From the human T2T-CHM13v2.0 reference genome, Homo sapiens: 64,000 nt of DNA. The stretch lies in the NCBI RefSeq assembly GCF_009914755.1, contig NC_060930.1. One strand, written 5' to 3'. A program made the position numbers and the translations under genes. Shown here piece by piece: positions 16,340-17,035 of this stretch. The notes under the pieces were generated by a model, which worked only from the letters and a program-made list of their open reading frames with translations, ran no database searches and had not been told where the DNA came from. How positions within the stretch are numbered: position 1 is the stretch's first letter; the number at the start of each line of letters is the position of its first letter.

Positions 16340-16810
16340 CTCTTTCCTCTCAGTTTGTAAATATTCTTGTCATTCCCCTCTTTATAAAGATCTTGTCTAT
16401 ACCCTGTGTTTTCCACTAGTTACTGCCTAGCTTTTTCTTTCCTTTAAATTCCAGCTTCTAAAGAGAATAAGACTATTCTTACAGTCTTTTTCCCTTTGGG
16501 CTGGAGACAATCTGATTTATGCTTCCAGGTTTCTCCATCAAAACTATCTTCTCCAAGGTCGCAAATGGCCTCCCGGTTACAGATCCCAAATGGGACTTGT
16601 CAGTCCTTATTTTACTTGCCTCTCTCTGGTATTTGTCCTTGCTGACCATGCTTTCCTAAATCTTTTCCTGTTGACAACATAGCGCAACTTTCTATTGGTT
16701 TTCCCCTTACCTCTATTAGAGTGACTTTTCTGCCTGCTTGCTTGTTCTTCCTCATCCGTGTATCCATTATGTGTCCTTGGTCCTCATGGCTCTGTTCTTT
16801 TCTCATTTCA
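16340..16810 (+). mobile_element. L2 reverse-transcriptase region (hosts the AHI1 exon in antisense)
   Basis: aaactatcttctccaaggtcgcaaatggcctcc / cagtccttattttacttg / gctgacca / tggttttccccttacctct / ggtcctcatggctctgt are colinear with the L2 RT motifs TETALVKVTNDL, LLDLSAAFDTVDH, WFSSYL and GVPQGSVLGP. Confidence 0.75.
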
Positions 16811-16813
16811 GAA
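16711..16813 (-). CDS. AHI1: AHI1 last sense-codon exon (103 bp, phase 2 to 0)
   Basis: (H)[34 protein letters not shown], the AHI1 C-terminus as I recall it. Acceptor tttccctcctatag|TTC, donor GAG|gtaagg. Confidence 0.95.
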
Positions 16814-16815
16814 CT

Positions 16816-17035
16816 ATAGGAGGGAAAGATCAGAAACAAGGAGCCAGTAAAAGAGAGCTGAGCTAAAAGCTCAGATGAGGCTTTGATCTAGGGCCGTGGC
16901 AGTGGAAACAAAAATGGGGATAAATGTGAGGATATGACAGAGAAAAACATCCGGCAGAACTAATGAGTATACACGGGGATGAGAGACAAGGAATTGCTTA
17001 AAATAACGTTAACAGACAAACCTTTGGCTGGTTGG
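16816..17035 (-). mobile_element. L2 fragment in opposite orientation
   Basis: ggagggaaagatcagaaacaaggagccagt...gatctagggccgtggcagtgga...ggggatgagagacaagga resembles reverse L2 (ggaagcagggagaccagtt...gactagggtggtggcagtgga). Confidence 0.65.

What the first reader, a model, noticed from the sequence alone, without database searches (positions are those of the whole stretch)
16805..17035. The acceptor of that exon sits at an L2 orientation flip that supplies its polypyrimidine tract
Seen: L2 similarity is plus-oriented up to about 16805 and minus-oriented from about 16816, where it matches a more 3' part of L2. The acceptor AG is at 16814-16815. On the transcribed strand the flipped piece is pyrimidine-rich (ccttgtttctgatctttccctcctatag) and directly precedes a purine-rich body with GAAGAA-type motifs. 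Inference: an inversion within one L2, or two abutting L2s, created a pyrimidine-tract/AG/purine-exon boundary from L2's strand bias. This suggests a general route to exon birth at LINE orientation switches.
Basis: partly seen in the sequence, partly recalled or inferred. Interest (0 to 1): 0.72.

Follow-up and report, generated by a model that had tools for sequence, protein, structure and literature searches.

The report
AHI1 exon built from two opposed L2 pieces
The last protein-coding exon of the human AHI1 gene is made from two fragments of an ancient LINE repeat that lie in opposite directions, one giving the upstream splice signal and the other the exon body and downstream splice signal; it is a neat but fairly ordinary case of a gene exon born from a transposon.

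Summary
I built profiles from human copies of an RT-encoding LINE family, with the AHI1 stretch masked out of training. I call the family L2 from recall only.

- **Plus-strand piece:** window 16332-16803, antisense to AHI1. E 9.9e-17 to 16715, 4e-16 to 16756, 2.8e-7 to 16803.
- **Minus-strand piece:** 16808/16813-16910, sense to AHI1. E 5.5e-4 to 4.5e-3; 1-4 of 2000 shuffles reach its score; z 8.6 against the family consensus.
- **Upstream continuation:** 16911-17060 is only weakly supported (50 of 1000 shuffles).

The minus piece maps about 400-500 bases further 3' in the element. The switch lies at about 16804-16808, so 5-10 bases inside the exon, next to the AG at 16814-16815.

The pyrimidine tract and AG are more than strand bias. 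They are a conserved site of the element's sense strand, the CAG of a Pro-Leu-Gln motif after the RT domain. The donor GTAAGG is the antisense of conserved RT codons.

The exon is old: its 34-residue tail is found in AHI1 proteins from all four placental superorders (55 of 99 examined).

Two points stay open. I could not tell an inversion from two convergent copies joined by a deletion, and the proposed general route to exon birth is untested. This is transposon exonization with an unusual two-piece anatomy, of modest interest.

The parts
16332..16803 (+). Piece A: fragment of an RT-encoding LINE family (L2 by recall), sense on the + strand and so antisense to AHI1. It covers the downstream intron, the donor and nearly the whole exon body.
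   Evidence: Profiles trained without the window gave E 9.9e-17 for 16332-16715, E 4e-16 for 16554-16756 and E 2.8e-7 for 16600-16803. The exon body alone scored z 3.2, 8 of 1000 shuffles. Through the intact relative P0119 the piece ends near the GPLLFS motif of the RT domain.
16711..16813 (-). AHI1 penultimate exon and last coding exon proper. It encodes the C-terminal 34 residues; the stop codon lies in the next exon.
   Evidence: Hub annotation, sequence, translation, and the tail in AHI1 proteins of many placental mammals.
16702..16710 (-). Donor site GAG|GTAAGGGGA.
   Evidence: It aligns to the family's conserved C(C/T)TACCT(C/T) read in antisense, which corresponds to about residues 256-258 (SYL) of relative P0119.
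16804..16808 (.). Interval that holds the orientation switch between pieces A and B.
   Evidence: The plus alignment ends at 16803. The minus alignment ends at 16813, or at 16808 in one iteration. Copies continue with TCTG/TCTA after the CAG, as the window does.
16814..16815 (-). Acceptor AG.
   Evidence: It aligns to the family's conserved CAG, about Q461 of the RPLQ motif in P0119.
16816..16840 (-). Polypyrimidine tract, with a possible branch point TTCTGAT whose A lies at -17.
   Evidence: Pyrimidine fraction is 0.85 for -3 to -22. It aligns to the pyrimidine-rich family consensus. The branch point is read from the sequence only and is inference.
16808..16910 (-). Piece B, well-supported part: the same LINE family in sense to AHI1, from a part of the element about 400-500 bases further 3' than the end of piece A.
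   Evidence: nhmmer E 5.5e-4 to 4.5e-3; 1-4 of 2000 shuffles; Smith-Waterman z 8.6, 0 of 1000, with no signal in the plus orientation.
16911..17060 (-). Piece B, weakly supported upstream continuation.
   Evidence: The alignment to consensus positions 24-189 is collinear, but z is 1.7 and 50 of 1000 shuffles reach it. No nhmmer hit was found.

Best explanation
The exon is a composite of two fragments of one ancient RT-encoding LINE family (L2 by recall). The fragments lie tail to tail and meet 5-10 bases inside the exon.

- **Upstream fragment.** It is in sense orientation to AHI1 and comes from the ORF2 part just after the RT domain. Its own conserved sequence is a run of pyrimidines ending in CAG (TAG here), which serves as polypyrimidine tract and acceptor.
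- **Downstream fragment.** It is antisense and comes from the RT domain. Read backwards it is purine-rich (0.71) and gives the exon body with GAA/GAG-type motifs. Its conserved ...TACCT... codons read as GGTAAG, the donor, 103 bases further on.

Shown: identity, orientation and position of the two fragments, the inheritance of both splice signals, and the conservation of the encoded tail across placental mammals.

Inferred: that the juxtaposition was what allowed the exon to be recognised (exon definition: tract/AG, then enhancer-like purine body, then strong donor), and that this happened in or before the stem of placental mammals.
For: - **Piece A.** Plus orientation at E 9.9e-17, 4e-16 and 2.8e-7, with the AHI1 stretch masked from training. 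The exon body alone gives 8 of 1000 shuffles, and none of the signal appears in the opposite orientation.
- **Piece B.** Minus orientation at E 5.5e-4 to 4.5e-3, 1-4 of 2000 shuffles, z 8.6 and 0 of 1000.
- **Acceptor.** The family consensus before the CAG is 0.79 pyrimidine, and 8 of 18 aligned copies keep YAG there.
- **Donor.** It aligns to the conserved TACCT of the copies.
- **Counterfactual.** An unbroken antisense copy would give 0.37 pyrimidine before the exon.
- **Family identity.** Copies run collinear on one strand from the RT part to the part homologous to piece B. A profile of their ORF remnants finds 427 proteins at E<=0.001; of the 10 scanned against Pfam, 4 carry RVT_1, 2 of them above Pfam's cut-off (P0103 3.5e-37, P0119 2.3e-33). 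P0119 maps collinearly onto 5 of 24 copies.
- **Age.** The tail peptide scores above every shuffled-peptide control in 55 of 99 AHI1 proteins, 43 of the 71 that are at least 1000 aa long. These include primates, rodents, carnivores, ungulates, bats, Afrotheria and a xenarthran.
- **No hairpin.** There is no inverted repeat between the two arms, so this is not a hairpin effect.
Against: - **Weak support for piece B.** It rests on about 100 bases with modest E-values. The first profiles did not find it at all. The first shuffle control gave 12 of 1000.
- **No protein-level support.** Pfam found nothing in the region. tblastn with intact relatives gave nothing significant on the AHI1 stretch (best E 0.09-0.39).
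- **Plus-strand hits across the junction.** Two weak single-sequence nhmmer hits cross it on the plus strand: L047 2550-2726 to window 16745-16924, E 0.01, and L024 2409-2459 to 16839-16889, E 0.52. Both lie outside the family-matching parts of those loci and carry composition bias.
- **Causality unshown.** Nothing here shows that the juxtaposition was needed. The sense-strand site might act as an acceptor without it.
- **Name untested.** The name L2 was not tested against a repeat library.
Confidence: 0.8

Rival explanations
1. Origin A: one element suffered an internal DNA inversion, with later loss of the rest of the inverted segment. This brought a 3' part in reverse next to the RT part.
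For: - Both pieces belong to one family and have similar decay.
- The geometry fits an inversion whose left breakpoint is at about profile position 914 and whose right breakpoint is at about 1420: sense piece ascending, then a more 3' piece descending.
Against: - A simple inversion predicts the missing middle (about 906-1165) in reverse at about 17060-17320, and a resumed plus-strand tail beyond.
- Neither was found. In 500 shuffles each, 360, 275 and 376 reached the observed score for the middle on the minus strand, and 474 and 432 for the tail on the plus strand.
- Absence is weak evidence in DNA this old.
Confidence: 0.35
2. Origin B: two independent copies inserted convergently, 3' ends facing. 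One deletion then removed both 3' ends and the spacer, joining the RT part of one copy to the post-RT part of the other.
For: - Both pieces lack the element's 3' end at the junction. LINE insertions normally keep it, so sequence was lost on both sides.
- One deletion explains both losses.
- No flanking remnants were found.
Against: - It needs two nearby insertions and a deletion of a few kilobases.
- Nothing in my data tells it apart from origin A.
Confidence: 0.4
3. The switch is incidental. The conserved pyrimidine-tract/CAG site of the sense strand would act as an acceptor wherever a usable donor follows, and the antisense body adds little.
For: - The site is a property of the family consensus.
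- Sela et al. 2007 report L2 exons in both orientations (41 sense, 62 antisense) with no orientation preference for LINEs (passages of PMC2394776).
Against: - In the consensus the sequence after the CAG is only 0.42 purine.
- The donor used here comes from the antisense piece.
Confidence: 0.3
4. The upstream piece is not a relative of the family at all. The match is chance similarity between pyrimidine-rich sequences.
For: - Early profiles missed it.
- The first shuffle control gave 12 of 1000.
- The part 16911-17060 is not significant.
Against: - Dinucleotide shuffles keep composition, yet only 1-4 of 2000 reach the score, and 0 of 1000 with z 8.6.
- The match is on the predicted strand, ends at the junction and is collinear with the weak upstream part.
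Confidence: 0.05

Closest known systems
Exonization of ancient LINE/SINE fragments (L2, MIR) in mammalian genes, as surveyed by Sela et al. 2007 (PMC2394776; passages read)
   Same: An intronic transposon fragment supplies the splice sites and body of a gene exon. L2 exons are reported in both orientations, and the element may give the whole exon or only one splice site.
   Different: Here two fragments in opposite orientation divide the work: acceptor from one, body and donor from the other. The exon is also the conserved last coding exon of the main isoform across placentals, not a minor alternative exon. AHI1 was not found in the one supplementary file held for that paper.
Antisense Alu exonization (abstracts and listings)
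   Same: The transposon sequence gives a pyrimidine tract followed by an AG, and a nearby latent donor.
   Different: In Alu the tract is the reverse of the poly(A) tail or linker. Here it is internal ORF2 sequence read in sense, and the donor lies in a second, oppositely oriented fragment.
Splice sites given by two oppositely oriented Alus in CWF19L1 (Sela et al. 2007, passage)
   Same: Two repeats in opposite orientation each give one splice site.
   Different: That case is a new intron inside an existing last exon, made by young primate Alus. It is not a new exon made from one ancient LINE family.
Twin-priming 5' inversion of LINEs (recalled from the L1 literature, not read here)
   Same: One element appears as two adjacent pieces in opposite orientation.
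   Different: Twin priming puts the inverted, more 5' piece before a sense piece that keeps the 3' end. Here the sense piece comes first, the inverted piece is the more 3' one, and neither keeps the 3' end. The geometry does not fit.

Membership tests
Transposon-derived (exonized) exon | Exon sequence is homologous to a dispersed repeat family | tested here: met
   for the body; for the first bases and the acceptor region.
Transposon-derived (exonized) exon | At least one splice site lies inside the repeat-derived sequence | tested here: met
   Both do. The AG aligns to the family CAG. The donor aligns to the family TACCT in antisense.
Transposon-derived (exonized) exon | The exon is really used in mRNA | tested here: met
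   The hub annotation places it in the selected transcript. The encoded tail is present in database AHI1 proteins, many of which are predicted models. No RNA data were examined.
LINE-2 (L2) family | Copies encode remnants of a non-LTR reverse transcriptase followed by a CR1/L2-type C-terminal part | tested here: met
   ORF remnants in copies. A profile of them finds proteins carrying RVT_1. P0119 maps collinearly on copies. That this layout is 'CR1/L2-type' is recall.
LINE-2 (L2) family | Match to the curated L2 consensus (Dfam/Repbase), with subfamily and consensus coordinates | not testable with these tools
   No repeat library was on hand. Rfam and Pfam gave nothing for the region. The name rests on my recall of the consensus.
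LINE-2 (L2) family | Old, abundant and strongly diverged copies | tested here: met
   A 484-base copy found 24 other places in the genome at 67-89% identity, a lower bound. Single copies do not find each other at 264 kb scale. An age of 100-300 My and about 500,000 fragments is stated in PMC6433296 (passages).
Twin-priming inversion | An inverted, more 5' segment precedes a sense segment that carries the 3' end | tested here: not met
   The order and polarity are the reverse, and no 3' end is present.
Inverted-repeat (hairpin) effect on splicing | The two arms are complementary to each other | tested here: not met
   0 inverted pairs in 16250-17150. The arms come from different parts of the element.

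The most novel reading that the evidence does not exclude
Junctions where this LINE family changes orientation are a preferred birthplace of exons genome-wide. The sense strand carries a ready pyrimidine-tract/CAG site (the Pro-Leu-Gln codons after the RT domain). The antisense RT region carries purine-rich enhancer-like sequence and a near-consensus donor (antisense of Ser-Tyr-Leu codons). Any inversion or convergent insertion that joins them therefore makes a complete exon in one step. AHI1's conserved C-terminal exon would be the founding example.
Probability: 0.12. Interest if true: 0.55.

Novelty: new member of a known kind. Interest (0 to 1): 0.3.

Why it matters
AHI1 (jouberin) is a Joubert syndrome gene. 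Its canonical C-terminus, 34 residues kept across placental mammals, turns out to be read from the antisense strand of a reverse-transcriptase remnant, spliced in through a site given by a second, opposed fragment.

This gives a clean worked example of how two latent signals of one repeat family can be combined by a rearrangement into a full exon. It also gives a concrete, testable genome-wide prediction. It does not change what is known about exonization in general.

Tried and rejected
- **Single-sequence searches.** nhmmer of both pieces against the window and 264 kb of neighbouring genome found nothing but themselves. A DNA search of the whole genome with 16816-17035 found only itself.
- **Libraries.** Pfam on 14 ORF pieces of the region gave nothing relevant, nor did 6 ORFs of copy L024. 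Rfam over 15000-18500 gave only Alu-type hits. Rfam over 20 copies gave Alu-type hits and one weak MIR7533 hit, and no family that would name the repeat.
- **Whole-genome protein searches.**
  - With the ORF of piece B: weak candidates L029-L032, which the family profile did not confirm.
  - With an ORF of copy L035: nothing.
  - With alignment A2 in the word-indexed protein search: nothing.
- **tblastn.** Intact RT relatives against the AHI1 stretch gave no significant hit.
- **Early profiles.** They missed piece B and the exon body. A run with the window inside the training set reached 16803; I set it aside as biased.
- **Flanks.** A search for the rest of an inverted element found nothing.
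- **Corrected misreading.** After I took the exon to be limited to catarrhine primates, since all 22 hits were catarrhines., 75 showed this was an effect of the word filter.
- **Papers.**
  - AHI1 with exonization: 1 paper, on retinal dystrophies, listing only.
  - AHI1 with LINE-2/L2b/L2c/'TE-derived exon': none of the 10 listed of 202 held AHI1.
  - Orientation switches and exonization: only Alu work.

Full report
**What is there.** The window is part of human AHI1, which is transcribed from the minus strand. Read on that strand, the exon 16813->16711 is preceded by a pyrimidine-rich stretch ending in TATAG, with the AG at 16815-16814. It is followed by GTAAGG. GC and AT skew both change sign between 16750 and 16850. 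On the transcript strand:

| Stretch | Composition |
|---|---|
| 50 bases before the AG | 0.78 pyrimidine |
| Positions -3 to -22 | 0.85 pyrimidine |
| Exon | 0.71 purine, one GAAGAA, six GAA |
| Intron after the exon (16600-16710) | 0.71 purine |

The exon encodes the last 34 residues of the protein, and the stop codon lies in the next exon (hub annotation; translation).

**Finding the repeat family without a repeat library.** Ready-made libraries and direct searches gave nothing.
- Pfam and Rfam gave nothing for the region.
- Single-sequence DNA searches found nothing in the window, in 264 kb of neighbouring genome, or in the whole assembly.
- A six-frame search of the assembly with a 47-residue ORF piece from 16516-16659 gave weak hits. 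Three of them also matched at the DNA level.

From one of these, L024, a 154-residue ORF found 14 more loci at E<=0.006. Their ORF remnants show reverse-transcriptase-like motifs. One copy, L037, matched nearly all the others on one strand and collinearly.

I built profiles from these copies, from 264 kb of local genome and later from five more copies. Window 15801-17600 was masked out of all training. A run that had the window in the training set was set aside as biased.

**Piece A (plus strand, antisense to AHI1).** Three unbiased profiles cover it.

| Profile run | Window match (+) | E-value |
|---|---|---|
| | 16332-16715 | 9.9e-17 |
|, re-aligned | 16554-16756 | 4e-16 |
|, re-aligned | 16600-16803 | 2.8e-7 |

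The homology therefore runs through the donor and almost the whole exon. The exon body alone (16716-16807), set against the family consensus, scores z 3.2, and 8 of 1000 dinucleotide shuffles reach it. The alignment falls at the expected collinear place. The opposite orientation gives nothing (842 of 1000). The rival idea that the body continues the upstream piece also gives nothing (696 of 1000). The donor aligns to a conserved C(C/T)TACCT(C/T) of the copies, which read in antisense is AGGTA(A/G)G.

**Piece B (minus strand, sense to AHI1).** Early profiles did not find it. Later ones did.
- A re-aligned profile of 19 copies gave 16911->16813 on the minus strand at E 0.0085.
- After iteration, with 31-32 family hits in training, the match was 16910->16813 (or to 16808) at E 5.5e-4 to 4.5e-3.
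- Shuffle controls gave 12 of 1000 with the first profile and 3, 4, 1 and 1 of 2000 with the later ones.
- Smith-Waterman against the consensus gave z 8.6 and 0 of 1000. The plus orientation gave 730 of 1000.
- Further upstream, 16911-17060 aligns collinearly but weakly: z 1.7, 50 of 1000.

Two weak plus-strand single-sequence hits cross the junction. They lie outside the family-matching parts of those loci, and I take them to be composition matches.

**Where the pieces sit in the element.** In the coordinates of the reference copy, piece A ends near 914 and piece B spans about 1314-1420, so B is the more 3' part. A profile of ORF remnants from 8 copies (A2) found 427 proteins at E<=0.001. I scanned 10 of them against Pfam. 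Four matched RVT_1, two of them above Pfam's cut-off: P0103 at 3.5e-37 and P0119 at 2.3e-33. P0119 maps collinearly on 5 of 24 copies. Through it:
- the donor corresponds to about residues 256-258 (SYL);
- the end of piece A corresponds to about 288 (GPLLFS, before YADD);
- the acceptor CAG corresponds to about Q461 of RPLQ, some 70 residues after the RT domain.

The family name L2 comes from my recall of the consensus. No repeat library was available to test it.

**The splice signals are inherited.** The family consensus before the CAG is 0.79 pyrimidine, and after it only 0.42 purine. Of 18 aligned copies, 8 keep YAG at that place. The tract and AG are thus a specific latent site of the sense strand, not merely strand bias. 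If piece A had continued unbroken, the 60 bases before the exon would be 0.37 pyrimidine. The junction is therefore what places a tract/AG in front of a purine-rich body with a strong donor 103 bases away. That this was necessary for exon recognition is inference. The arms are not complementary (0 inverted pairs), so no hairpin is involved.

**The breakpoint.** The plus alignment ends at 16803. The minus alignment ends at 16813, or at 16808, and the copies go on with TCTG/TCTA after the CAG as the window does. The switch lies at about 16804-16808, which is 5-10 bases inside the exon.

**Origin.** The geometry is a sense piece ascending, then a more 3' piece descending, with neither carrying the 3' end. 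It is the reverse of a twin-priming inversion (recalled). It fits either an internal inversion with later loss, or two convergent copies joined by a deletion. I found neither the missing middle nor a resumed tail in 17041-17600 or 15830-16335. The choice stays open.

**Age.** A first search with the exon peptide returned only catarrhine primates (22 of 22; tails). That was an effect of the word filter. A search with the SH3 exon gave 194 AHI1-type proteins, of which 120 were listed. I examined the 99 that were new.
- 55 carry the tail above the best of 30 shuffled-peptide controls.
- 43 of the 71 proteins of at least 1000 residues carry it.
- 37 of the 55 end at the exon's end.
- Species include New World monkeys, a loris, squirrels, carnivores, rhinoceros, horse, camel, pig, a whale, bats, shrew, manatee, elephant, tenrec and an anteater.

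The 44 without the tail are fragments or other predicted isoforms. The remaining 74 hits were not listed, so marsupials and other outgroups were not examined. The exon therefore dates to the placental stem or earlier. This fits the 100-300 My age given for L2 in PMC6433296 (passages).

**Comparison with what is known.** Sela et al. 2007 (PMC2394776, passages) count 103 human L2 exons, 41 sense and 62 antisense. They find no orientation preference for LINEs. They describe one case (CWF19L1) in which two opposed Alus give the two splice sites of a new intron. I found no paper that links AHI1 to exonization of this repeat or that treats orientation switches of LINEs as exon sources. AHI1 is absent from the one supplement held for Sela et al.; its other supplements could not be seen.

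**Verdict.** It is a new, well-dissected member of a known kind, transposon exonization, with a two-fragment anatomy. The general claim remains an untested idea. Interest is modest.

Noticed in passing
window 15495-15830: An Alu element: Metazoa_SRP-type Rfam hits and strong matches to Alus in many fetched loci.
   Followed up: no
window 17180-17232: A (TG)n microsatellite in the intron upstream of the exon. It drew a weak simple-repeat match at 18369-18439.
   Followed up: no
window 17570-17945: An unidentified interspersed repeat that matches parts of loci L026, L045 and L046, with E from 2.5e-9 to 6.2e-29. It is not part of the LINE family profile.
   Followed up: no
window 22501-22751 (+) and 43237-43359 (+): Two further fragments of the same LINE family in AHI1 introns, both antisense to the gene.
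   Followed up: partly
proteins P0001, P0002, P0006, P0184, P0243, P0244, P0246: Database AHI1 proteins (several of them predicted models) of a gibbon and of Old World monkeys read through the donor into the intron (…[10 protein letters not shown]…). They use the same 91-codon open frame seen in the window at 16612-16887. Several gibbon models instead add PGVLPQK after …LIE.
   Followed up: no
locus L024 about 2250-2665 (minus strand): Right after a plus-strand RT-region copy there are minus-strand ORFs that, by recall only, look like the 3' part of the same family. This may be another convergent pair. tblastn with P0119 did not pick it up at E 1e-3.
   Followed up: partly
locus L035 about 862-1522 and 1525-2151: Two adjacent family hits on one strand cover overlapping parts of the profile. 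This is either a tandem partial duplication or two neighbouring copies.
   Followed up: no
locus L036 1777-2006 (minus strand of the locus): A weak Rfam match to MIR7533 (47.6 bits against a gathering score of 230, E 2e-6) inside the RT-region copy. The model may itself derive from a related repeat.
   Followed up: no
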